In this document: piece by piece, positions 10,079 to 61,940 of the stretch
Numbering within the stretch: position 1 is the first letter of the stretch
Layout: each line of letters starts with the position of its first letter
Source: Minisyncoccota bacterium
GTDB lineage: Bacteria; Patescibacteriota; Minisyncoccia; UBA6257; JAGOQP01
Length of the DNA stretch: 64,000 nucleotides
NCBI GenBank assembly: GCA_041661795.1
Contig: JBAZTS010000002.1
Location: forward strand, 36,263 to 100,262
Direction: 5' to 3'
Notes under the pieces: generated by a model
Databases searched by the model: none
Told to the model about the DNA's origin: nothing
The model's input: only the letters and a program-made list of their open reading frames with translations
Program-made: the position numbers and the translations under genes

Positions 10079-10276
10079 GAAAAAAGTTTAAAAAAGAAAA
10101 AATTTTTAACTGTCGTGAAAGTTATCCACAGTTTTGGTTTCCATTTTGTTGTAAAATGTTCTAAAATTAGATTAGTAAAAGGTTAAAAACTTTTTCAACA
10201 TCATAGTTGAATAGTCGGCGGCTCTGGTGTTGGTAAAATTTATTTTTCTTCCATTAATCTTGGGAGAAATCATAAA

Positions 10277-10421: not shown

Positions 10422-10450
10422 CCCCCACACTAATGGAATTAGTGTGGGGG
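10422..10450. repeat. hairpin repeat CCCCCACACTAAT-n5-ATTAGTGTGGGGG (family copy a)
   Basis: Perfect 12-bp inverted repeat. Confidence 0.8.
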
Positions 10451-15334: not shown

Positions 15335-15361
15335 CCCCACACTAATTCTATTAGTGTGGGG
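15335..15361. repeat. hairpin repeat CCCCACACTAAT-tct-ATTAGTGTGGGG (family copy b)
   Basis: Same stem sequence as copy a; between the lepB-like gene and the pilin-like gene. Confidence 0.8.
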
Positions 15362-37310: not shown

Positions 37311-37369
37311 CCCCCACACCAATTTTGCTTATTATCGTCAAGTGCGTGTTGGCAGAATTGGTGTGGGGG
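37311..37369. repeat. hairpin repeat variant CCCCCACACCAATT-n30-AATTGGTGTGGGGG (family copy c)
   Basis: 14-bp inverted repeat related to copies a and b, with a larger loop. Confidence 0.7.
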
Positions 37370-39278: not shown

Positions 39279-39315
<37 letters not shown>

Positions 39316-39324
39316 GCTATGAAA

Positions 39325-39366
39325 TAAAAAAAGCCCGCCGGTGTCTTCCGAGGAAGTCCTGGCGGG
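39325..39366 (-). terminator. intrinsic terminator of the minus-strand GC-rich transcript
   Basis: Minus-strand RNA …CCCGCCAGGACUUCC-UCGG-GGAAGACACCGGCGGG followed by UUUUUUU. Confidence 0.65.
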
Positions 39367-39922
39367 GTGGAACAGGTGGTGCGACCTTAGCTCACTCGGT
39401 GCTGTCGAGTTCGCTCGCCCGATATACTCTCCGGGTGATACGAGAGCTCGAATCTGCCGAGACGTGACGCGTGGTCACTTTTTGCTAAGGTTTTTTGGGG
39501 TGCTGCTCCTCTTCCTGTTCGGTACTTTCTAAGAACGGTTCCCACACCGTTCTCGCCGGCGAGCTTAGCTCGCGCAGGGTAGAGGCGCCTCCTAAAGGAG
39601 GCAAAACATGAGTACAAATTCGGAATTGGATTTTTGTGAGTTTCCGGACTCACTATCTCGTTTGGTGCACCTCCCGAGAAGTCCTTTTCCTTCCACTTAT
39701 TATTGGGCCAGTTTGAGATCAGCGGTGGACACTCAAACTGTTTGCGTGCTTTCACCGAGCTTGCCGGATTTACTCGGATCTTTGGTGAGATGGCGCAACC
39801 CCACAGTTTTGACCTCCCTCAGCTGCGCGCGCAACTGAGTTGTCAGCTCACCTAGTGACAGAGGCCCCCTTTTTGACCGTTTTTTCTTCTTGGTCCGGAA
39901 GGGTTTCCGTGCTACATTTTTA
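39335..39922 (-). ncRNA. unclassified GC-rich structured transcript (~590 nt) upstream of and co-directional with dnaX; candidate SRP RNA, tmRNA or other ncRNA
   Basis: Consensus promoter (TTGACA-N16-TATAAT at 39930-39957, minus strand) and intrinsic terminator; 55-60% GC; many hairpins (CCUCCuuuaGGAGG, GCGAGCuaaGCUCGC, GAGAACGGUgugggaACCGUUCUU); no convincing long ORF. Confidence 0.4.
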
Positions 39923-52668: not shown

Positions 52669-54618
52669 TTATGAAGATGCTTTTTTAATTGCCTCCATTT
52701 CTTTTTTTATTTGAGTAGCTTTTTCAAACTGTAAATTTCTCTGTGCCATTTCCAGTTTTTGCCTTAATTCTTTCAAATAATCCCTCTTAAATTCACTGCT
52801 GATATTTTTGAACTCTTCGCTTTTCTCTTCTTTATTATCTAATAATGTATTTTTTATTTCTTTTATTATGGCCTGTGGCTTTTTATTGTGTTTGCGATTA
52901 TATTCCTGCTGAATTTTTCTTCTTCTGTCCATTTCGGATATTGCTCCTTTCATTGATTTAGTAGTTTTGTCGGCATACATAATCACATGGCTGTTTAAGT
53001 TTCTGGCAGATCTTCCGGCAATTTGAATGAAAGAAGTTTTATCTCTTAAAAATCCTTCTTTGTCGGCGTCTAAAATAGCTATTAATGAAACTTCAGGTAA
53101 ATCCAATCCCTCTCTTAATAAGTTTATCCCAACCAGAACATCAAACTTTCCGGTTCTCAAATCAAAAAGAATTTTTGGTCTTTCCAATGTATCAATTTCG
53201 GAATGTAAAAACTCAGCTTTTATTTTTTTATCCTTAAAATGTTGAACTAGGGCTTCTGACAAGCGCTTGGTAAGAACAGTTACTAAAACTCTTTCTTTCC
53301 TTTTTATTCTTTCTTCTATTTCTTTTATTAAGTCAGGGATTTGATTTTCCGTGGGGCGAATCTCAGTTTCCGGGTCCAAAAGATAAGTTGGTCTGACAAT
53401 CTGTTGGGCAACCAAAGATGATTTTTCCAATTCATATTCAGCTGGGGTAGCCGAAGCAAACAAACATTTATTTATTTTTGAATGAAACTCGTTAAATTTA
53501 AGAGGTCGATTATCTAAGGCCGATGGTATGCGAAATCCGTGTTCTATAAGAGTTTCTTTTCTGGCTTTGTCGCCGTGATACATCCCTCTTACCTGAGGAA
53601 GAGTCATGTGGGACTCGTCTATAATCATCAAAAAATCTTTAGGAAAATAATCAATCAAAGTGAATGGGGGACTGTCTGGTTTTCTTCCCTCAAAATAACG
53701 GGAATAATTTTCAATTCCTTTACACCAGCCAACTTCAGATATCAAAGCCATATCATAATTAGTCCTTCTCTTGAGACGCTCGGCTTCTATCATTTTTCCT
53801 CTTTCCTGAAGTTTTTTAACTTGTTCTTCCAAATCCAAACGTATATTGGATATGGCTACTTGTCTTACACTCTCTTCCGATGACCAGAATTTTGCCGGAA
53901 ATAAATTAATTTCTTTTATATCTTTACTTTTTCCAAACGGCGCTTCCATTTCCACTATTTTCTCAATTGATTCGTGGTTTATCTTAAATCTGTATAAAAT
54001 ATCTCCTCCCGGGGGCCAAACATCTATAAACTCGGCCCTCTGTCTAAAATTTCCTCTCCAAAAACCAAATTCGTTTCTCTCAAACTGTAAAGTTAGTAAT
54101 TTTTTTAGAAGTTCTCTTTTAGTTGTTTTTTGACCCACTTTTATTTTTAAAGAAAGATTTTTGTATGCCTCTGGAGAACCCAAATTATAAATACAGGAAA
54201 CAGAAGCCACGATTATGGTGTTTGGATTTTTTAAAACTGATTGGACGGCCGCGTGTCTTAGTTTGTCTATCTCTTCATTAATTTGAACTTCCTTTTCTAT
54301 ATAAGTATCGGATGTGGGTAAGTAGGCCTCTGGTTGGTAGTAGTCGTAGTAGGAAACAAAATAATGGACATTGTCTTTAGGAAATATCATTTTAAATTCT
54401 TCATAAAGCTGGGCGGCTAAAGTTTTGTTATGGGAAATAACTAAGGTGGGCTTGTTAAGTGCCTGAATGGTGTGGGCCATAGTAAACGTTTTACCGCTTC
54501 CGGTAACTCCCAAAAGTGTCTGGAATTTATTGTTTTTACGGAACCCAGAAACTATCTGTTTTATAGCTTTGGGTTGATCGCCAGCTGGCTTTAGTTTTTT
54601 TGATATATTAAATGGCAT
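52669..54618 (-). CDS. uvrB: excinuclease ABC subunit B
   Basis: …LLGVTGSGKTFTMA…, DESH, helicase motifs, and a C-terminal UVR coiled-coil (…LQFEKATQIKKEMEAIK). Confidence 0.95.
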   Translation of the reverse strand: MPFNISKKLKPAGDQPKAIKQIVSGFRKNNKFQTLLGVTGSGKTFTMAHTIQALNKPTLVISHNKTLAAQLYEEFKMIFPKDNVHYFVSYYDYYQPEAYLPTSDTYIEKEVQINEEIDKLRHAAVQSVLKNPNTIIVASVSCIYNLGSPEAYKNLSLKIKVGQKTTKRELLKKLLTLQFERNEFGFWRGNFRQRAEFIDVWPPGGDILYRFKINHESIEKIVEMEAPFGKSKDIKEINLFPAKFWSSEESVRQVAISNIRLDLEEQVKKLQERGKMIEAERLKRRTNYDMALISEVGWCKGIENYSRYFEGRKPDSPPFTLIDYFPKDFLMIIDESHMTLPQVRGMYHGDKARKETLIEHGFRIPSALDNRPLKFNEFHSKINKCLFASATPAEYELEKSSLVAQQIVRPTYLLDPETEIRPTENQIPDLIKEIEERIKRKERVLVTVLTKRLSEALVQHFKDKKIKAEFLHSEIDTLERPKILFDLRTGKFDVLVGINLLREGLDLPEVSLIAILDADKEGFLRDKTSFIQIAGRSARNLNSHVIMYADKTTKSMKGAISEMDRRRKIQQEYNRKHNKKPQAIIKEIKNTLLDNKEEKSEEFKNISSEFKRDYLKELRQKLEMAQRNLQFEKATQIKKEMEAIKKASS

Positions 54619-54871: not shown

Positions 54872-54962
54872 CAAAACAAGTTTCGAAACCGCTTCACTGC
54901 CGTGAACAACACTACAGAAAGAGCGGTCGGAGCACTGCTCTTTCACAGAAAGGGGAACTTCG

Positions 54963-55361
54963 ATGAGTGGGATCGCTTGGTTTTTCGAGGTGTTCGCTCT
55001 GCTGTTTTTCGTGGGGACTCTGGGCGTTGCTTTCATCGGACGCCGCATCCTCAAGGCGGAGCAGGAGTCGTCGGTTCTGATGTCTTTCCTCCAGATCTGC
55101 AGTGGAGCGCTCTTCATCTTCTACGTTTTCGGACTGGGTCAACTCATGGCTCTGTCTGGACTGGAAGGTGCAAGGGCGCCCCGGTGGCTGATTCCGGGCA
55201 CCTACATCACTCTCACCATCTTCAGCGCGTTGACTCGGCTGGCTCTTCCAAGGTGGGGCAGTGACAACAAAGCGATGCAACTCTGGAGTGTCGTCAGCGT
55301 CCTGACGTTCCTACTCGGCACGTTCTGCCTCGGGGCGTACTCGTCCAACTACTTCGAGTAG
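54963..55361 (+). CDS. GC-rich (~58% GC) 4-TM membrane protein of unknown function
   Basis: AAAGGGGAAC RBS before the ATG at 54963; four hydrophobic helices; terminator hairpin at 55386-55420; overlapping alternative-frame ORFs were rejected. Confidence 0.4.
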   Translation: MSGIAWFFEVFALLFFVGTLGVAFIGRRILKAEQESSVLMSFLQICSGALFIFYVFGLGQLMALSGLEGARAPRWLIPGTYITLTIFSALTRLALPRWGSDNKAMQLWSVVSVLTFLLGTFCLGAYSSNYFE

Positions 55362-55385
55362 GTCTCCTTCTTCAGCTCTTCAACT

Positions 55386-55420
55386 GGCGGCGTCTCTCAC
55401 GAGGCGCCGCACTGCTTTTT
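55386..55420 (+). terminator. intrinsic terminator (GGCGGCGucucucacgagGCGCCGC followed by a T-run)
   Basis: GC stem followed by ACTGCTTTTT. Confidence 0.55.
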
Positions 55421-55467
55421 ATATGGTTATAAAATTTATATAAATTTCCCCGTCAATATAAATCCGC

Positions 55468-56607
55468 TTAATCGGTATATGTCCGTGACCGACGTAGTCG
55501 GTGGTATCGTATAGCAAATCTGTGGGCTTCGTTTCTTAACGAAAGTAATGTATTTTTAACATCTTCGGGGATTTGGCTCAAGCTGATAGGGGATTTTGAA
55601 TAGGGACTGTAAATCAATCCTTTTGTTTGTGATCTTTTATATTTCTTGCCAACATCGTTAATTAACTTACCATTACAATTAGAACGATCGTTGTAATTGT
55701 AATGGTGTGGATTATTACCCACAGATTGCAATTTGCCCACGTTTAGTTTTGCTAGAGCTATCATCGGAATCTTAATTGTTTTGAGTTGTGAGATTTGTGA
55801 TTTTCCTCCGTCAATGATAATTAAATCCGGATATTTCCATTCTTTGTGGTTAAGGCGTCTTTCTATAATTTCTTTTATTGAAGCCGGGTCATTGGCTCCT
55901 TTTATCGTTTTTATTTTAAATTTTCTGTAAAGATTTTTATTAGGTTTATTTCCGATAAACGTTACCATTGAGCCAACTGACAAACTACCTTGGGTATTGG
56001 AAATGTCGTAGCACTCAATATGTGTTTTTTCTCCATTATATAAACGAAGAAAAGTTTTTAATCCATTAACCACCTGGATGTATTTTTTTACTTCGATATT
56101 ATGAGCGGAACATAACCCTAAGTGATAATACAAGCACGGCTTTTCCGGTTTATTTTTACATGTGCGATAGGGGAATATTCTTCTGATTATCAATAAGAGA
56201 TGCTTAATCTCTTTTGCGTCTACAAACGGGCCAACAAAATCGGCTTTAAATTTTTTTGTTTGGTGTGTTAAAAGCACTCTGGGGTACTTTTCGTCGGTAA
56301 AAGCTATATACAAAAAATCCTTGTCATCTTTAAGTTCAATGTTATATTTTGGCTGATACTGTCTAACTAATTTTCTTTCTAAAATCAAGGCGTCTTTTTC
56401 AGATGGGGTTTCTATAAAATCTAAGTCAGCTACTTGTTTGTAAAAATTAATAGAAGCATTCTCTTGTCTAGAAAAATGCGATTCTATTCTCTTTTTTATA
56501 TTAATAGCTTTTCCGATATACAAAATCTTCTCATTCTTATCTTTGAAAATATATACTCCCGGTTTCTTAGGAAGTGCTTTTATCTTATTCTTCAGGATTG
56601 TTTTCAC
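55468..56607 (-). CDS. uvrC: minimal UvrC-like endonuclease (GIY-YIG, Cys motif and C-terminal endonuclease domain; no UvrB-binding or HhH domains), with a 36-bp palindrome in-frame
   Basis: GVYIFKDKNEKILYIGKAINIKKRIESHF (GIY-YIG); YRTCKNKPEKPCLYYHLGLC; IECYDISNTQG…DLIIIDGGKSQ…NEAHRFAIRYHR matches the UvrC catalytic D/D/H triad region; 379 aa. Confidence 0.7.
   Translation of the reverse strand: MKTILKNKIKALPKKPGVYIFKDKNEKILYIGKAINIKKRIESHFSRQENASINFYKQVADLDFIETPSEKDALILERKLVRQYQPKYNIELKDDKDFLYIAFTDEKYPRVLLTHQTKKFKADFVGPFVDAKEIKHLLLIIRRIFPYRTCKNKPEKPCLYYHLGLCSAHNIEVKKYIQVVNGLKTFLRLYNGEKTHIECYDISNTQGSLSVGSMVTFIGNKPNKNLYRKFKIKTIKGANDPASIKEIIERRLNHKEWKYPDLIIIDGGKSQISQLKTIKIPMIALAKLNVGKLQSVGNNPHHYNYNDRSNCNGKLINDVGKKYKRSQTKGLIYSPYSKSPISLSQIPEDVKNTLLSLRNEAHRFAIRYHRLRRSRTYTD
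55670..55705. repeat. 36-bp palindrome CCATTACAATTAGAACGATCGTTgTAATTGTAATGG (copy 1, in-frame inside the uvrC-like CDS)
   Basis: Near-perfect palindrome; translated as …HHYNYNDRSNCN… within the 379-aa ORF. Confidence 0.85.
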
Positions 56608-56645
56608 TGTTTTTTTATTTTTATCCTTATCTTAATCTTAATCTA

Positions 56646-56681
56646 CCATTACATTTAGAACGATCGTTCTAAATGTAATGG
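56646..56681. repeat. 36-bp perfect palindrome CCATTACATTTAGAACGATCGTTCTAAATGTAATGG (copy 2, intergenic)
   Basis: Between the uvrC-like start and the PaaX-like stop. Confidence 0.85.
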
Positions 56682-56684
56682 TGG

Positions 56685-57245
56685 CTAGATTTTCTTTATA
56701 GTCCCCATTTTTCCTATTTCCAATATCTCCACGTATTCGTTTATTCTCATTTTTTCTAAATCTTCCACAAACTTTTTAGGAATTTTTATTTTTCCTATCC
56801 AGACACTTTTTTGCAACATTTCAAATCCAATATTCTTTACAGCTGATCTTAACCAAGCCCTCTTCCTTTTAAATTTTTCCGGAACATCAAAAGCTATCAA
56901 AATAACATTGTTTCCGGCTTCTTTCTTATAATCTAAAGCTGGAGATTGATTATTGGATACCCGGTTAATAAGTTTTTTGGCTTTTTTAGTAATCTTGATA
57001 ATCAACCCCTCTTTTTGTTCTATGAGTCCGTCTTTCTTAAGACGATAAATCATTACCCTATATCTGTTTCTTATTTTTTCTTTCTCTGTTTTGATAGTCT
57101 CATTTTTAGTGCCGATTCTATTTAAATTGTCTCTTAATATAGACGTTGAGCCCCAAGAGAATAAAAACGCTTCAAAAGCATTAGAGTATGTTTGTCTATC
57201 TACATTATTTAGAAAACTTATTGTTTCTCTATTTCTTGCCCTCAT
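56685..57245 (-). CDS. PaaX-like regulator: N-terminal winged helix plus a C-terminal Cas2/VapD-like domain
   Basis: …RNRYRVMIYRLKKDGLIEQKEGLIIKITKKAKKLI (wHTH) followed by VILIAFDVPEKFKRKRAWLRSAVKNIGFEMLQKSVWIG (PaaX C-terminal-type fold). Confidence 0.45.
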   Translation of the reverse strand: MRARNRETISFLNNVDRQTYSNAFEAFLFSWGSTSILRDNLNRIGTKNETIKTEKEKIRNRYRVMIYRLKKDGLIEQKEGLIIKITKKAKKLINRVSNNQSPALDYKKEAGNNVILIAFDVPEKFKRKRAWLRSAVKNIGFEMLQKSVWIGKIKIPKKFVEDLEKMRINEYVEILEIGKMGTIKKI

Positions 57246-57270
57246 AACAATATTATATCATCATTTATTA

Positions 57271-57306
57271 CCATTACAATTAGAACGATCGTTCTAATTG
57301 TAATGG
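57271..57306. repeat. 36-bp perfect palindrome CCATTACAATTAGAACGATCGTTCTAATTGTAATGG (copy 3, upstream of the PaaX-like gene)
   Basis: Lies 26 nt upstream of the PaaX-like start codon. Confidence 0.85.
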
Positions 57307-57417
57307 AGGGAGTATATATGATTAAGAATATTAAATAATTATCATAGAGTTATTATGATTATAGATTGATTTTATCGTTTTAATTAAAGAGTGCCTTATA
57401 AATTAGCACGGACCGCT

Positions 57418-57570
57418 TTATGGGCGGTCCGGGATGGGTGGAGCGGGTGCGGGCTTGACCACTTTGGCCACGAGGCCGATTAATATGGTCAGCATTGAAA
57501 CGGGTACTACGGTGGCGATGATGACGGACGATTCCACCACCACCAGAGACCACTTGACTAGGTAGTGCAT
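57418..57570 (-). CDS. GC-rich 50-aa hydrophobic peptide (MHYLVKWSLVVVESSVIIATVVPVSMLTILIGLVAKVVKPAPAPPIPDRP)
   Basis: AGGAGG 4 nt upstream of the ATG; single TM; terminator hairpin GGACCGC/GCGGUCC overlaps the stop codon. Confidence 0.3.
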   Translation of the reverse strand: MHYLVKWSLVVVESSVIIATVVPVSMLTILIGLVAKVVKPAPAPPIPDRP

Positions 57571-57689
57571 TCAACCTCCTTTCTTCTGAGAATCTTGGTG
57601 ATCCACAGATAGAGGTTGTATCCTGTTTGAATAACGTGGGCCATCTTTTGGCCCAGTATTGTCGTCCGATGAAACGTTGTTGTAGACAT
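57558..57689 (-). CDS. GC-rich 43-aa peptide (MSTTTFHRTTILGQKMAHVIQTGYNLYLWITKILRRKEVECTT)
   Basis: AAAGGAGAC RBS 5 nt before the ATG; the downstream part of the listed 57558..57860 ORF, whose upstream part is the wrong frame of the neighbouring gene. Confidence 0.25.
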   Translation of the reverse strand: MSTTTFHRTTILGQKMAHVIQTGYNLYLWITKILRRKEVECTT

Positions 57690-57703
57690 CACGTCTCCTT
57701 TGG

Positions 57704-57949
57704 TTAGGCGATGGCGCCGGGGTATTCTTCGGAGATCTTCTCGATCTCTTTTTCCTCTTTCTTCACTTGGTCTGTGAGCACAAGGAAGAAAAAGATGATG
57801 GCCATGATTCCCACAAGAGTGGCAAAGGCCCATGAAAAGCTCTTGGGGAGTTGGAACCATCGTGATAAGTGATATCCTCCAAAAGTGAGAATTACCACGG
57901 CCACGGTCGCTCCAACTTTACGGAGCAAGTTGAGTAGTCCCGGGAACAT
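57704..57949 (-). CDS. GC-rich 81-aa 2-TM protein
   Basis: AAGGAGG RBS 6 nt before the ATG; two hydrophobic helices. Confidence 0.3.
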   Translation of the reverse strand: MFPGLLNLLRKVGATVAVVILTFGGYHLSRWFQLPKSFSWAFATLVGIMAIIFFFLVLTDQVKKEEKEIEKISEEYPGAIA

Positions 57950-58193
57950 TACTCTCCTCCTTTTTGGTGTACATCTTTCGAAGTTTCTCCTGTAGAGCGT
58001 TGAGCCCCGTGAAGACCAGGGCTCCGGTCAGAAACCCGATACAAGCCAACGATCCTCGGATCTCCAATCCTGGAGGCAGTGGAACTCGGTCTGCCCATAG
58101 GACCGTGAAGAAACAGGAAGCAGCAGTTGAAAGGCCAACGAAAGTGAACCAAACCACTCTTGCGATCAACTCCAGAACTTTTCCGATTTTCAT
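57918..58193 (-). CDS. GC-rich 91-aa 2-TM protein
   Basis: GAGGAGG RBS 7 nt before the ATG; first gene of a 4-ORF GC-rich micro-operon. Confidence 0.3.
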   Translation of the reverse strand: MKIGKVLELIARVVWFTFVGLSTAASCFFTVLWADRVPLPPGLEIRGSLACIGFLTGALVFTGLNALQEKLRKMYTKKEESNVPGTTQLAP

Positions 58194-58280: not shown

Positions 58281-61193
58281 ATGAAAAAAGAGAATCAATC
58301 AATAGAAATAATCGGGGCGCGTGTCCACAACTTAAAAAATGTGGATGTTTCTATACCTAAAAATAAATTGGTAGTTGTTTGCGGAGTTTCTGGTTCCGGA
58401 AAATCATCTTTAGCTTTTGATACTTTATACGAAGAGGGACAGAGAAGATATTTAGAAAGTTTGTCCTCTTATGTCAGACAGTTTTTAGGAGGATTTAAAA
58501 AACCAGATGTTGAAAAAATAATCGGCTTGTCTCCGACTATCGCCATCAACCAAAAAAGCGTTTCTTCCAATCCGCGTTCAACTGTGGGCACAATAACTGA
58601 AATTTACGATCATCTCCGTCTTCTCTTTGCTCGAGTTGGAATTCCTCATTGTCCAAATGACAACATTGTCATAACCGCTCAGACACCACAAGAAATCGCC
58701 AATAGAATTATTGACTTGGCTCATAACAACGAAATTGTTTTGCTGGCTCCAATAATCTCGGGGAAAAAGGGTCAGCACCAGGCGATTTTTGACGAGATTG
58801 AGAGGGGCGGATATTCACAGGTCAGGGTTGATGGGTATTTTTATCCCATTGCCGAAGCCAAAAATATTTCTCTGGATAAAAATAAAAAACACGATATCGA
58901 AGTTACCGTAGGTAAGTTTTTTACTGGAGTAAAAATAGATATCCAAAGAAATATATCCAAAATGGAAAGAGAGGCATTGAAAAACAAAAATAAAAAGATA
59001 GATAAGTTGATAAAAGAAGAAAAGTTAGAACTTTTAGAAAACATCAGAAAAGGACTGGCCATGGGGCAGGGAAATATTGTTGCTCATACCAAGGGGAAGG
59101 ATTTTTCCTTTTCCGAGAATTATTCCTGTTCTAAATGCGGATTTTCTTTACCCAAAATTGAACCCAGAACTTTTTCATTCAACAGTCCTTTTGGAGCTTG
59201 TAAAAATTGTCAGGGATTGGGAACTAAACTTGAAATAGATTTGGATTTGATAATCAACCCGGAAATCTCTTTGGAAGCGGGAGCTATAAAGCCCTGGTTT
59301 TCTTTAAGCCGTATGGGAAGAAGAGCTCTTGGCGCCAATTGGCAGAGATTTGTTACTGAGACCATTATTAGGGATTCTGGGCTGTCCCCAAGAACTCCTT
59401 TTGGAAAACTTCCCAAAGAAGTCCAGGATAAAATTTTATATGGTGATAAAGAAAATTATACTCATCTTAAAGACGGCGATTGGGAAGGAAAAACTTTATT
59501 TGAGGGAATTATTCCTCGCTTGGAGCGACTTTATTACGAAACTGAATCTGATTTTATCAGACAGGAACTTTCTAAATACATGCTTGAAAAAACCTGTCCC
59601 GTTTGTAATGGGTCGCGTTTAAGAGAAGAAGCATTGGCGGTAAGAGTGGGAGGAAAGAACATTTCTGAATTGACTTCAATGGCGGTTTTGGATTTTGTTA
59701 GTTTTTGCCAAAAACATATTTATGAAAAAATGTCGGAAAATCAAAAAACGGTTGCTGTTTCAATAATCAAAGAAATTTCCACTAAATCAAATTTTTTAAT
59801 TAACGTTGGTTTGGAATATATGAACTTGGGAAGGTCAGCGACTACTTTGTCAGTAGGAGAAAATCAAAGAATCCGCCTGGCTACCCAGTTGGGTTCTGGA
59901 TTGTCTGGAGTGATTTATGTTTTAGACGAACCGACTATTGGGCTTCATCCTCGCGACACTGACCGTCTCATAAAAACATTAAAAGAACTTAGAGATTTAA
60001 ATAATACCGTGATTGTGGTGGAACATGATGAGAGGGTTATAGAAAGCGCCGATTGGGTTATTGAAATTGGACCATTAGCCGGAGAAGAAGGTGGCAAGGT
60101 TGTTTTTGAAGGAACGCCATCAGATTTGAAAAAATCAAAAACGTTAACTGGATTATATTTTGCCGGCAAGAAAAAAGCGCAATCGGGACTTTCTAAAAAT
60201 AATTCTGAAAATAAAGAATTTATAAAACTGTATGGCGCTTCACAGTTTAATTTAAAAAACATAAATCTTTCCATTCCTTTAAAAAAATTTGTCTGTGTGG
60301 CAGGAGTTTCGGGCTCGGGTAAAAGCACGTTAATGTTAGATGTTTTTGCCAAGGCCCTTCAGAAAGAAGTTCTTAGGATGAGCGTGGCTGTAGGTGAATA
60401 TAAAAAACTTGAGGGGGAAAGAAATATAGACAAAGTGGTTATTATTGACCAAAGTCCTATCGGCAGAACCCCTCGTTCCAATCCGGCTACTTATACGGGA
60501 ATTTTTACTCCCATTAGACAATTTTTCACTCGCTTGGAAGAGTCGCAGATAAGGGGATATGGGCCATCATATTTTAGTTTCAACGTTAAGCCGGGAAGAT
60601 GTGAGGCCTGCAGAGGGGAAGGATTTAAAAAGGTGGAGATGTATTTTTTGCCGGATATGTACGTAGAGTGTGAAGTTTGTAAAGGCACCAGATTTTCTCC
60701 CGAGGTTTTGGATGTTAAATATAAAAACAAAAACATTGCTGATGTTCTTTCTATGAGCGTTAAGGAAGCGCTGGCGTTTTTTCACCAGTTTCCTTTTATT
60801 GGCGATAAGTTAAAAATTCTTGATGAAATCGGTCTTGGATATATGAAACTGGGACAGCCGGCGACAACTTTGTCGGGAGGAGAAGCTCAAAGGATAAAAC
60901 TTTCCGATGAACTTGCCAAAAGAGCTACAGGAAGGACTATTTATATTTTAGACGAACCGACTGTGGGACTTCACTTTGAAGACACAAAAAAACTTTTATA
61001 TATTTTGCGCTCGTTGGTTCTAAAAGGTAATACGGTTTTAGTTATAGAACACAATCCTGATGTTTTAAAAGAATCGGACTGGATTATTGAACTTGGTCCC
61101 GAAGGTGGAGACAAGGGAGGAAAAATAATTTTTGAGGGAACACTGGAAGAGATAAAAAAGAAAAAAACAATGACGGGGAAGTATTTAATATGA
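58281..61193 (+). CDS. uvrA: excinuclease ABC subunit A
   Basis: 970 aa; two ABC modules ([12 protein letters not shown]…, LSGGE), zinc-finger Cys pairs, C-terminal …[16 protein letters not shown]. Confidence 0.95.
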
Positions 61194-61411
61194 AGATAAT
61201 AATCATCGTAAAACCAAATAAAAAAGAAAATAAGGTTGTGAAAATAGGAGAGAACATTTTTGAAATTTATACGAATCAACCGGCTAAAGAAAATAAAGCC
61301 AATTTGGATATTATTCAACAAATGTCCAAGTATTTTAAAGTATCAAAATCAAAGGTTTCTATATCTTCCGGATTAAAGTCAAAGAAGAAAATTTTGGAAA
61401 TAAATATATAA
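61190..61411 (+). CDS. DUF167 (YggU-like) family protein
   Basis: 73 aa; …KANLDIIQQMSKYFKVSKSKVSISSGLKSKKKILEI matches the DUF167 C-terminal consensus (AN…L…VxKsxVxIxxGxxSRxK). Confidence 0.65.
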   Translation: MKIIIIVKPNKKENKVVKIGENIFEIYTNQPAKENKANLDIIQQMSKYFKVSKSKVSISSGLKSKKKILEINI

Positions 61412-61443
61412 AAAAAGGGGGCTCCCGGTGTTGCTGGGAGCCC
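61410..61443 (-). terminator. intrinsic terminator of the minus-strand GC-rich transcript (GGGCUCCCagcaacaccGGGAGCCC followed by UUUUUUU)
   Basis: Seen on the reverse complement; it also caps the convergent DUF167 gene. Confidence 0.6.
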
Positions 61444-61940
61444 AAAGTGCGGTAAGGAGGTCAATGTACGATGCGGTGCCTGCCGTGCGTCGCTTCGCTC
61501 GTTCGGGTCTTGGTGGTTCAGATCAGGGCCAGTCGTGCCCGAAAACTTAACTTTCTGGCCCATTGCTTCTCGGCACGCATGGTTTCTCCTTGCATGGATT
61601 TTTGGTCCACGCAGCTCTGCCCTCAGCGCTTGACGGTGGCCTCGTCGTTGGTGCGGTGGTTGTTCTGACGCTGTTGCATGGGATTTCTCCTCGCGTGAAC
61701 GTCGTCGGTTGTTGGTGCTAGCTATGGCTCAAGTCAAGCTTTCTTTTCGGTGAGCTTGACGAGCAGTGCTAGCGCCTGTTCTGGGTTTCGTTTTTTATCG
61801 GTATAACCTTCACAAGGTTATACCAGGGTTTCCTTCCTGATTGGCGGTCAAGAAGGTTGTTTAATCATCCAGCATTGTCCTAACTAACGGAACGGCGGTT
61901 CGACGTCCACGTGCATCGCTTTCCTCCTTATGTAGTTTAC
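61443..61940 (-). ncRNA. GC-rich (~57% GC) transcript with only mini-ORFs (10, 18 and 20 codons, each with a strong SD); function unknown
   Basis: Promoter TTGACT-N17-TATCCT (minus strand, 61948-61976); first mini-ORF UAAGGAGGAAAGCG-AUG (MHVDVEPPFR); ends at the terminator at 61410-61443. Confidence 0.35.

What the first reader, a model, noticed from the sequence alone, without database searches (positions are those of the whole stretch)
55670..57306. 36-bp perfect palindrome family (x3) around the uvrC-like and PaaX-like genes, one copy translated in-frame inside the uvrC-like gene
CCATTACA(A/T)TTAGAACGATCGTTCTAA(T/A)TGTAATGG occurs at 55670, 56646 and 57271. Copy 1 is inside the UvrC-like ORF, between its DGGKSQ and EAHRFA catalytic motifs, and is read through as HHYNYNDRSNCN. 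Copies 2 and 3 bracket the PaaX-like regulator gene; copy 3 is 26 nt upstream of its start. The palindromes could be operators for that winged-helix regulator, a hairpin-type mobile repeat, or both. Another in-frame insertion in a repair gene echoes the lepA and pgk elements.
Basis: seen in the sequence. Interest (0 to 1): 0.65.

Follow-up and report, generated by a model that had tools for sequence, protein, structure and literature searches.

The report
Regulator gene bracketed by translated palindromes
A small DNA-binding protein gene in a candidate-phyla (Paceibacterota) bacterium is flanked by two copies of a 36-bp palindrome, an arrangement kept in ten related lineages; the palindromes are most likely its binding sites, and spare copies have landed inside working genes, where they are translated as a 12-residue loop.

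Summary
The 36-bp palindrome occurs at 55670, 56646 and 57271, with none expected by chance. Copies 2 and 3 are perfect; copy 1 has one mismatch.

That mismatch turns a TAG, built into the perfect palindrome in the frame uvrC reads, into TAC. Two further copies on metagenome contigs lie in frame inside rnhB and murF. Each also has its TAG changed (TTG, TAC). UvrC orthologues lack the segment, which models as a disordered loop.

The main new result concerns the 186-aa "mini-PaaX" gene (winged helix plus Cas2-like domain, no PaaX C-terminal domain). In all 10 lineages examined it sits between two 30-48-bp palindromes. Nine keep a CGATCG centre; one pair is degenerate. The arms differ by lineage but stay Watson-Crick symmetric (95.7% paired, almost no G-T). 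The upstream copy overlaps the gene's promoter-like site (-35 inside copy 3).

Best reading (0.55): these are the regulator's own binding sites, with the upstream one autoregulatory, and a few copies have spread, some into coding DNA. A selfish gene-plus-palindrome module is not excluded (about 0.2). No protein-DNA binding was tested. I found no description of the arrangement in the literature searched.

The parts
57271..57306 (.). Palindrome copy 3 (perfect, 36 bp, CGATCG centre). Upstream site of the mini-PaaX gene. Its proximal arm supplies the -35-like hexamer TTGTAA.
   Evidence: Promoter scan: - strand TTGTAA (57279-57274), 16-nt spacer, TG-extended TATAAT (ending 57252), 10 of 12 matches, the joint-best score in 55300-57700. 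The -10 ends 6-7 nt before the ATG, so the mRNA is probably leaderless.
56685..57245 (-). [quoted passage not shown]
   Evidence: Pfam PF20803 at 45.3 bits (cut-off 24) and PF09827 Cas2 at 24.3 bits. AF2 model pLDDT 88.9. Foldseek best hits are E. coli PaaX 8a39 and then Cas2 structures, all with weak E-values. The wHTH region aligns weakly (E 0.03-0.06) with MarR/PadR recognition helix and wing. 53 homologues were found; all that carry a source name are Parcubacteria or Patescibacteria.
56646..56681 (.). Palindrome copy 2 (perfect; an A/T variant that is compensated in both arms). Downstream site of the mini-PaaX gene. It lies in the 77-nt spacer before uvrC.
   Evidence: No T-run follows it on the transcribed (-) strand, so it is not a canonical intrinsic terminator.
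55670..55705 (-). Palindrome copy 1 (one mismatch), translated in frame within uvrC as HYNYNDRSNCNG (residues 302-313).
   Evidence: The mismatch converts the TAG of the perfect palindrome to TAC. About 92 orthologues lack the segment: the DGG..EAHR distance has a median of 64 aa against 98 aa here (alignment). The AF2 model has only one low-confidence segment, residues 292-326.
55468..56607 (-). uvrC (short form typical of the clade, without UVR or HhH2 domains). It hosts copy 1 and lies directly downstream of copy 2.

Best explanation
The palindromes are the cognate DNA-binding sites of the adjacent mini-PaaX protein, a dimeric winged-helix regulator whose Cas2-like domain probably serves as the dimerisation module, as in PaaX. 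Gene and sites form a conserved cassette: palindrome, about 6-100 nt, gene, about 3-130 nt, palindrome. The upstream site overlaps the gene's own promoter (in the window the -35 lies inside copy 3 and the mRNA looks leaderless), so the protein autoregulates. The downstream site is a second binding site. It may act as a roadblock or insulator at the 3' end, and in this genome it sits just ahead of uvrC, so uvrC may be co-regulated. A few extra copies have been seeded elsewhere. Where one landed in a tolerant surface loop of a coding gene, in the one hydrophilic frame, it survived once its built-in TAG was mutated, and it is now translated as a 12-residue loop.

Shown: the architecture, its conservation in 10 lineages, the DNA-level dyad symmetry, the promoter overlap by consensus match, the insertions relative to orthologues, and the stop-codon changes. 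Inferred: protein binding, autoregulation, the role of the downstream site, and how copies spread.
For: 1. In 10 of 10 independent lineages (the window plus loci for P0002, P0005, P0019, P0030, P0032, P0041, P0045, P0008 and P0038) the gene is bracketed by two 30-48-bp palindromes. Nine keep an invariant CGATCG centre and one pair is degenerate.
2. The arms are lineage specific but symmetric. On the 17 sites aligned from 7 lineages, 95.7% of cells pair against 29-43% when the partner is slid; 16 of 19 pairs change on both sides; only 1 cell changes on one side (almost no G-T). This indicates DNA-level dyad symmetry and not an RNA fold.
3. Of 24 CGATCG-centred long palindromes in about 250 kb of loci, 20 flank a mini-PaaX gene.
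4. The -35 hexamer of the highest-scoring promoter-like site in the region (tied at 10 of 12 with one + strand site) lies inside copy 3. TATAAT-like boxes lie within or right after the upstream palindrome in L009, L013, L017, L019 and L024.
5. The protein has a MarR/PadR-like recognition helix and wing plus a PaaX_M domain. E. coli PaaX binds a 39-bp widely spaced inverted repeat, TGATTC-N27-GAATCA, and autorepresses its own promoter (PMC9493321). That footprint is of similar size.
6. The cassette's position is stable. It is the same across assemblies (L019-22, L009-11, L015-16), syntenic between L013 and L017, and partly syntenic between L015 and L025. No homologues occur on plasmids or phages.
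7. Coding copies: the perfect palindrome has TAA in frame 1 and TAG in frame 2. All three coding copies use frame 2, and each changes that TAG (TAC, TAC, TTG).
Against: No binding data exist. Perfect symmetry over 18-24 bp per arm, including the spacer between the conserved T..C / TTACA positions and the centre, is more than a dimeric regulator normally requires. The two sites at one gene differ at positions that are each compensated in the other arm. In L015 and L019/L020 the downstream copy lies between convergent genes, so it cannot be the promoter operator of a neighbouring gene. An operator does not move by itself, yet 36-bp copies appear as discrete insertions in three unrelated genes. 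The half-site centres are about 25 bp apart (about 2.4 helical turns), which is awkward for a simple dimer binding one face of the DNA. The Asp at the position I take, from memory, to be Cas2's catalytic Asp (D120) is invariant in the family.
Confidence: 0.55

Rival explanations
1. The cassette (palindrome, gene, palindrome) is a selfish module comparable to a REP/RAYT 'REPtron'. In this reading the wHTH targets the palindrome, probably as an extruded hairpin or cruciform, and the Cas2-like domain is an active nuclease that nicks at or near CGATCG. The protein thereby copies or mobilises the 36-bp palindrome, or the whole cassette, to new sites. The solo copies in uvrC, rnhB and murF would be its products.
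For: The gene is flanked on both sides in 10 of 10 lineages. The palindromes are perfect, and within-genome variants are compensated in both arms. There are discrete in-frame insertions in three unrelated genes, derived from both master variants. The 6-bp centre is invariant, as at the cleavage sites of hairpin-forming enzymes (my own comparison, from memory). D120 and E123 are invariant or nearly so in the Cas2-like domain. The cassette sits in different gene neighbourhoods in most lineages.
Against: Copy number is very low: 3 copies in 74 kb of the source genome, all at one locus. No degenerate relics were found in about 250 kb. No target-site duplication is recognisable. The cassette's position is stable among assemblies and syntenic between some lineages. 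No presence/absence or inversion polymorphism was seen. There are no homologues on plasmids or phages. PaaX uses the same domain without any known nuclease role. Only 81 protein clusters in 5.8 billion share words with the encoded peptide.
Confidence: 0.2
2. The palindromes act as RNA hairpins at the 5' and 3' ends of the mini-PaaX transcript. They would serve as stabilisers, processing sites or terminator-like structures, possibly bound or cut by the Cas2-like (RRM-like) domain. Their DNA symmetry would be a by-product.
For: Each forms a 16-bp stem (DNA fold -13.8 kcal/mol, z = -9.8). Several copies are followed by T-runs (L013 downstream, L019 downstream, L012 upstream, L017 upstream). Downstream copies sit between convergent genes in L015 and L019, where a bidirectional terminator would be expected. 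Some Cas2 proteins are RNases (PDB entry titles).
Against: There are almost no G-U pairs among 323 cells (1 one-sided change against 106 double changes), which is unlike evolving RNA helices. In the window the best promoter match places the transcription start downstream of copy 3, so the upstream palindrome would not be transcribed with the gene. Window copy 2 has no U-tract on the transcribed strand. No Rfam family matches.
Confidence: 0.12
3. The two palindromes are site-specific recombination sites, either Xer/dif-like or protelomerase-like, that allow inversion, excision or resolution of the gene cassette.
For: A perfect palindrome with a conserved 6-bp centre resembles the core sites of tyrosine recombinases and telomere resolvases (a resemblance recalled from memory). 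A XerC-like integrase gene lies immediately upstream of the cassette in L014 and L017/L018.
Against: No integrase gene lies next to the cassette in the window or in 7 other lineages. No inverted or excised variants were seen among multiple assemblies of the same cassette. The mini-PaaX protein has no recombinase fold.
Confidence: 0.05

Closest known systems
PaaX repressor of E. coli and Pseudomonas (phenylacetyl-CoA-responsive; PDB 8a39, 3l09)
   Same: Both have an N-terminal winged helix followed by the Cas2-like PaaX_M domain. Both have a long inverted-repeat operator of about 36-39 bp. PaaX autoregulates by occluding its own promoter (PMC9493321), and the same is inferred here from the promoter overlap.
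   Different: The C-terminal ligand-binding domain is absent (186 aa against about 305-316 aa). There are no paa genes nearby. The site is a fully symmetric palindrome with an invariant CGATCG centre, not two hexamers separated by a non-symmetric N27. A second copy always follows the gene. Copies also occur inside coding sequences.
REP elements with their RAYT transposase (REPtrons)
   Same: A gene is flanked on both sides by copies of a short palindromic repeat that also occurs as solo copies elsewhere in the genome.
   Different: The protein is not an IS200/IS605-type HUH/Y1 transposase. Copy number is a handful and not hundreds. The palindromes are perfect and lack the GTAG head. Solo copies are intragenic and translated.
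Rickettsia palindromic elements (RPEs)
   Same: Palindromic repeats are inserted in frame into unrelated housekeeping genes and translated as extra surface peptide segments without destroying the host protein.
   Different: RPEs are about 100-150 bp, have many copies and have no associated protein gene. Here the element is 36 bp, has few copies, is tied to a regulator gene, and needs a stop-codon-removing mutation to be translated.
Cas2 (CRISPR adaptation protein)
   Same: The C-terminal roughly 75 residues adopt the Cas2 ferredoxin-like fold (Foldseek probability 0.9-0.99, weak E-values). Sources annotate family members as 'CRISPR-associated endonuclease Cas2'.
   Different: No cas1 gene is called in the roughly 10 kb on either side of the gene in the loci examined, and no repeat array was noticed, though none was specifically searched for. 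The protein has an N-terminal wHTH fusion. The Cas2 annotation is almost certainly a domain-level misnomer.

Membership tests
PaaX-family transcriptional regulators | Central PaaX_M (Cas2-like) domain | tested here: met
   PF20803, E = 9.6e-12, 45.3 bits against a cut-off of 24. All 53 homologues carry the domain.
PaaX-family transcriptional regulators | [quoted passage not shown] | tested here: met
   The AF2 model has helices 6-71 and a beta-hairpin wing at 75-85. The top Foldseek hit is PaaX 8a39, at a weak E-value of 0.027. The profile aligns weakly (E 0.03-0.06) with the MarR/PadR recognition helix and wing. No Pfam PaaX N-terminal hit passed the threshold.
PaaX-family transcriptional regulators | C-terminal helical effector (phenylacetyl-CoA) domain | tested here: not met
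   The protein ends about 10 residues after the Cas2-like domain. It is 186 aa long against 305 aa for 8a39, and there is no PaaX_C hit.
PaaX-family transcriptional regulators | Binds a long inverted repeat that overlaps promoters, including its own | not testable with these tools
   Only positional evidence is available: the -35 hexamer lies inside copy 3, and the upstream palindromes lie within 6-96 nt of the ATG in 10 lineages.
Cas2 / CRISPR adaptation module | Encoded next to cas1 and a CRISPR array | tested here: not met
   No Cas1 family is listed among the called neighbours in any locus. CRISPR arrays were not specifically searched for.
REP/RAYT (REPtron) | The flanked gene encodes an IS200/IS605-like HUH Y1 transposase | tested here: not met
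   Pfam, NCBIfam and fold search give only wHTH plus Cas2-like matches.
REP/RAYT (REPtron) | The gene is flanked by palindromic repeats that are also dispersed in the genome | tested here: met
   Flanking was seen in 10 of 10 lineages. Solo copies occur in uvrC, rnhB, murF and one intergenic site in L015. Copy number is very low.
In-frame palindromic insertion elements (RPE-like) | The element is inserted in frame in unrelated ORFs and is absent from orthologues | tested here: met
   For uvrC, about 92 orthologues lack the segment. For rnhB, 62 aa occupy a stretch where E. coli has 28 aa. The murF fragment carries the same peptide. For rnhB and murF no close orthologue was available to fix the exact boundaries.
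MITE / transposon-derived repeat | Target-site duplication at the insertion boundaries | tested here: inconclusive
   No convincing direct repeat flanks any of the 5 copies. There is only a weak AT-rich similarity (TTAAYYTA) on one side.
Intrinsic terminator | GC-rich stem followed by a U-tract on the transcribed strand | tested here: not met
   The stems are AT-rich. Window copies 2 and 3 have no T-run on the - strand. Some downstream copies in other lineages do have T-runs.

The most novel reading that the evidence does not exclude
The mini-PaaX cassette would be a previously unrecognised kind of selfish element. In it, a wHTH plus Cas2-like protein recognises and cuts or copies its own CGATCG-centred perfect palindromes, so that gene and sites are maintained together. 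It would also occasionally plant 36-bp copies into new loci, including essential genes, where they survive as translated loops. This would give a solo Cas2-like domain a DNA-processing role outside CRISPR.
Probability: 0.2. Interest if true: 0.85.

Novelty: new variant of a known kind. Interest (0 to 1): 0.62.

Why it matters
Almost nothing is known about transcriptional regulation in Candidate Phyla Radiation bacteria. This analysis gives a lineage-wide, directly testable pairing of a regulator with its likely site. The site changes from lineage to lineage while its symmetry and its CGATCG centre are kept, so it could serve as a natural series for studying how DNA-recognition specificity evolves. 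It also shows operator-like palindromes becoming part of housekeeping proteins through a stop-codon-removing mutation, which is a rare, clean example of regulatory or selfish DNA turned into coding sequence. It corrects a widespread 'Cas2' misannotation. If the rival reading is right, it would reveal a new mobile-element mechanism built on a Cas2-like domain.

Tried and rejected
1. A peptide-profile search for HYNYNDRS.CNG in 5.8 billion proteins listed nothing at E <= 10.
2. The genome-contig scan with the half-site gave only a chance half-match in a 69% GC Competibacteraceae contig. L003 from the metagenome scan is likewise only a half-site.
3. Viral-contig scans found no copy of the 36-mer. 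The generic TTACA-N7-CGATCG-N7-TGTAA pattern gave 9 hits that are not symmetric in the N7 stretches, and none has a mini-PaaX gene nearby.
4. There are no homologues of the regulator in the plasmid or phage collections or in PHROGs. PADLOC gave only Cas2-domain hits.
5. No Rfam family matches the region.
6. I looked for rnhB or murF in the window, to compare filled and empty sites at high identity. Neither gene is present.
7. The strain-level indel next to the L019/L020 cassette is not at the palindrome: its breakpoint is about 110 nt away, inside a LamG gene.
8. No extra weak sites (TTACA-N20-TGTAA) occur upstream of uvrA, uvrB or other window genes beyond chance, so a LexA-like repair regulon is not supported.
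9. The similarity of flanks beyond the palindrome (about 10 nt, AT-rich) was judged too weak to define a longer element or a target-site duplication.
Full report
**Observation.** The 36-bp sequence CCATTACA(A/T)TTAGAACGATCGTTCTAA(T/A)TGTAATGG occurs at window 55670-55705, 56646-56681 and 57271-57306. No shuffle of the window gave a single match, even with three mismatches allowed.

- Copies 2 and 3 are perfect palindromes.
- Copy 2 differs from copy 3 by an A/T change that is mirrored in both arms.

A profile search, a scan allowing 10 mismatches and a scan of 10 kb beyond the window's right end found no further or decayed copies in about 74 kb of this genome.

The window is contig JBAYLG010000001.1 of a Candidatus Paceibacterota MAG, GCA_041664185.1. 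The same locus is also assembled on a 156-kb ENA contig and a Logan contig.

**Gene context.** The order of features is as follows:

| Feature | Coordinates | Strand |
|---|---|---|
| uvrB | 52669-54618 | - |
| GC-rich island | about 54889-55427 | |
| uvrC | 55468-56607 | - |
| copy 2 | 56646-56681 | |
| PaaX_M-domain gene, 186 aa | 56685-57245 | - |
| copy 3 | 57271-57306 | |
| second GC-rich island | about 57386-58141 | |
| uvrA | 58281-61193 | + |

Copy 1 lies inside uvrC, between the DGGKSQ and EAHRFA motifs of the RNase H-like endonuclease domain. It is translated as HYNYNDRSNCNG, residues 302-313.

**The coding copy is an insertion that had to be repaired.**

- The perfect palindrome contains TAA in frame 1 and TAG in frame 2. 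Only frame 3, which reads the hydrophobic ITIRTIVLIVM, is open.
- uvrC reads the palindrome in frame 2. The single mismatch of copy 1 is exactly the change TAG to TAC.
- Among 92 UvrC orthologues (the closest about 56% identical), the DGG..EAHR distance has a median of 64 residues (range 61-89), against 98 residues here. None carries the motif.
- Against the nearest relatives with 76-residue spacing, the excess is about 22 residues centred on the palindrome.
- An AlphaFold model of the window UvrC is confident overall (pLDDT 85). Its only segment below 50 is residues 292-326, a loop between two strands of the RNase H-like domain.

**The same 36-mer sits in other genes.** A half-site scan of JGI metagenome contigs found two more full copies, both on contigs of sample Ga0172379 with about 36% GC.

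- On L004 the copy lies in an RNase HII gene and is read as HYILNDRSKCNG. It is of the copy 2 type, with TAG changed to TTG. It lies just before the conserved VIADG strand, in a stretch that is 62 aa long where E. coli RNase HII has 28.
- On L002 it lies in a murF fragment and is read as HYNYNDRSKCNG, with TAG changed to TAC.

All three coding copies therefore use the same hydrophilic frame. Each deviates from a perfect palindrome at the TAG codon, through two different substitutions; the L002 copy has one further unpaired position. Each is otherwise intact. Neither contig encodes a mini-PaaX gene. The only similarity of these contigs to the window is the palindrome itself. The stop-codon pattern argues that these copies are translated.

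**The palindrome pair is a conserved feature of the regulator gene.** A homologue search with the 186-aa protein returned 53 proteins of about 160-210 aa. All carry PF20803, and all that have a source name are Parcubacteria or Patescibacteria. I fetched the DNA around nine of them: P0002, P0005, P0019, P0030, P0032, P0041, P0045, P0008 and P0038.

- In every case the gene is bracketed by two long palindromes: one 6-96 nt upstream of the ATG and one 16-127 nt after the stop.
- In eight of the nine, as in the window, the centre is exactly CGATCG and the arms are 15-24 bp, perfect or with one or two mismatches.
- In the ninth (L023) the pair is recognisable but degenerate, with centres CGACCG and CGGTCG.
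- The arm sequences differ between lineages. Four share TTACA-N7-CGATCG-N7-TGTAA. Position -12 is T in 8 of 10 lineages and position -9 is C in 6 of 10 (counted by eye).
- On 17 sites aligned by their centre, 95.7% of arm positions pair, against 29-43% when the partner column is slid. Sixteen of 19 pairs show changes on both sides. There are 106 double changes and one one-sided change.
- The near absence of G-T pairs points to symmetry at the level of duplex DNA (or DNA hairpins), not to an RNA helix.
- The two sites at one gene often differ slightly, and each difference is mirrored in the opposite arm.
- Of 24 long CGATCG-centred palindromes in about 250 kb of fetched sequence, 20 flank a mini-PaaX gene. 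The other four are the three coding copies and one intergenic copy between divergent genes in L015.

**What the protein is.**

- Pfam gives PaaX_M (45 bits) and a weaker Cas2 match. NCBIfam gives Cas2 just above its cut-off, which explains the public 'Cas2' annotations.
- The AlphaFold model (pLDDT 88.9) shows helices, a beta-hairpin wing and then a ferredoxin-like domain.
- By Foldseek its best PDB match is E. coli PaaX (8a39), followed by many Cas2 structures and the PaaX-like Rv0674. All E-values are weak (0.03 and above), although the Cas2-domain probabilities are 0.9-0.99.
- A family profile aligns the conserved RLKKDGLI...LT.KG stretch with the recognition helix and wing of MarR/PadR regulators, at marginal E-values of 0.03-0.06.
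- The PaaX C-terminal effector domain is missing.
- No cas1 gene is listed among the called neighbours, and I did not search specifically for CRISPR arrays.
- E. coli PaaX binds TGATTC-N27-GAATCA, a 39-bp inverted repeat, and represses its own promoter by occlusion (PMC9493321). That is the same scale as these palindromes.

**Position relative to promoters.** In 55300-57700, one of the two top-scoring sigma-70-like matches (10 of 12, with a TG extension) is on the - strand: TTGTAA (57279-57274, inside the proximal arm of copy 3), a 16-nt spacer, then TATAAT ending at 57252. That is 6-7 nt before the ATG, which suggests a leaderless mRNA. The total number of promoter-like matches in the region did not exceed the shuffled expectation, so this rests on position and not on enrichment.

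In L009 and L013 the mismatches of the upstream copy create TATAAT and TATGAT. In L017, L019 and L024 a TATAAT follows the palindrome directly. This is the geometry expected for autoregulation.

The downstream copy is harder to explain. In L015 and L019/L020 it lies between convergent genes, so it cannot be the operator of a neighbour's promoter. In the window it lies 38 nt ahead of the uvrC start codon, with no U-tract on the transcribed strand.

**Stability versus mobility.**

- The cassette is found in different neighbourhoods in most lineages.
- L013 and L017 are syntenic (PNPase, NYN, S15, Xer-like integrase, cassette). L015 and L025 share M16 peptidase, MetRS, TatD and a class II tRNA synthetase nearby.
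- Multiple assemblies of the same cassette show the same location and orientation. The one strain difference, between L019 and L020, is an indel about 110 nt away from the palindrome.
- No homologue is present in the plasmid or phage collections.
- No target-site duplication is evident. The flank similarity is a weak AT-rich motif on one side.
- Only 81 protein clusters in the 5.8-billion-sequence collection even share words with the encoded peptide.

The element is therefore not a prolific repeat. Dispersal events are rare.

**Interpretation.** The most economical reading is that the palindromes are the binding sites of the mini-PaaX protein. The cassette would be a self-contained autoregulatory unit, and a few copies have been planted elsewhere by an unknown, rare process. 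Three of these survive as translated loops. I give this 0.55.

Several features go beyond an ordinary operator:

- perfect symmetry over up to 48 bp;
- the invariant 6-bp centre;
- mirrored variants within one genome;
- a site at both ends of the gene;
- discrete 36-bp insertions in unrelated genes.

These keep alive a REPtron-like selfish-module reading in which the Cas2-like domain is catalytically active (0.2). An RNA-hairpin role (0.12) and a recombination-site role (0.05) are less well supported.

**Novelty.** Full-text searches for PaaX with Patescibacteria, PaaX/Cas2/palindrome, Cas2-like with winged helix, and palindromic in-frame elements in the CPR found no description of this family or arrangement. 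I classify it as a new variant of a known kind: a PaaX-type regulator with an inverted-repeat operator. There is a minority chance that it is something categorically new.

Noticed in passing
window 10423-10449, 15335-15361, 37312-37368: A second, unrelated hairpin family: CCCCACACTAAT, a short loop, then ATTAGTGTGGGG. Three intergenic copies (the third has one mismatch per arm and a longer loop). Six arm matches were found against 0.29 expected.
   Followed up: partly
window 54889-55427 and 57386-58141 (also 39314-39885 and 61410-61786): GC-rich islands (53-58% GC in a genome of about 35% GC) flank the uvrC / mini-PaaX block. They hold only small membrane-like ORFs without Pfam families: 54963-55361 (+), 57704-57949 (-) and 57918-58193 (-). 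There is no Rfam match.
   Followed up: partly
window 55468-56607: UvrC here and in its Paceibacterota orthologues is a short form (about 345-380 aa) without Pfam matches to the UVR domain or the C-terminal (HhH)2 domain. More distant homologues in the same search carry the UVR domain (PF02151).
   Followed up: no
L004 about 10090-10190 (rnhB residues 35-67): The RNase HII gene that carries the palindrome also has a second extra segment of about 33 aa relative to E. coli RNase HII. Part of it is encoded by locally GC-rich DNA (CCGCCTGCCTGCCGGTAGGCATGG).
   Followed up: no
L035 17991-19587 (about 8 kb beyond the right end of the window): An N6_N4 DNA methyltransferase gene is followed by a DUF6996/DUF6997 gene, possibly a restriction-modification pair. 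Whether it targets CGATCG or GATC, the invariant centre of the palindromes, is unknown.
   Followed up: no
L009 4653-5840 and 6961-9102; L012 4516-5799; L020 10751-11950: Genes for LamG (Laminin_G_3) surface proteins lie next to the mini-PaaX cassette in three lineages. They may be local regulatory targets.
   Followed up: no
L009 6570-6690: Between the mini-PaaX stop codon and the downstream palindrome there is a run of degenerate 9-nt tandem repeats resembling GTTGATCGT.
   Followed up: no
L015 3991-4032: A third perfect copy of that lineage's 42-bp palindrome lies about 6 kb from the cassette. It sits between a divergently transcribed DeoR-like HTH gene and an operon that encodes a 1691-aa SNase/LTD protein. 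This is the only non-cassette intergenic copy seen, and it would fit a small regulon.
   Followed up: partly
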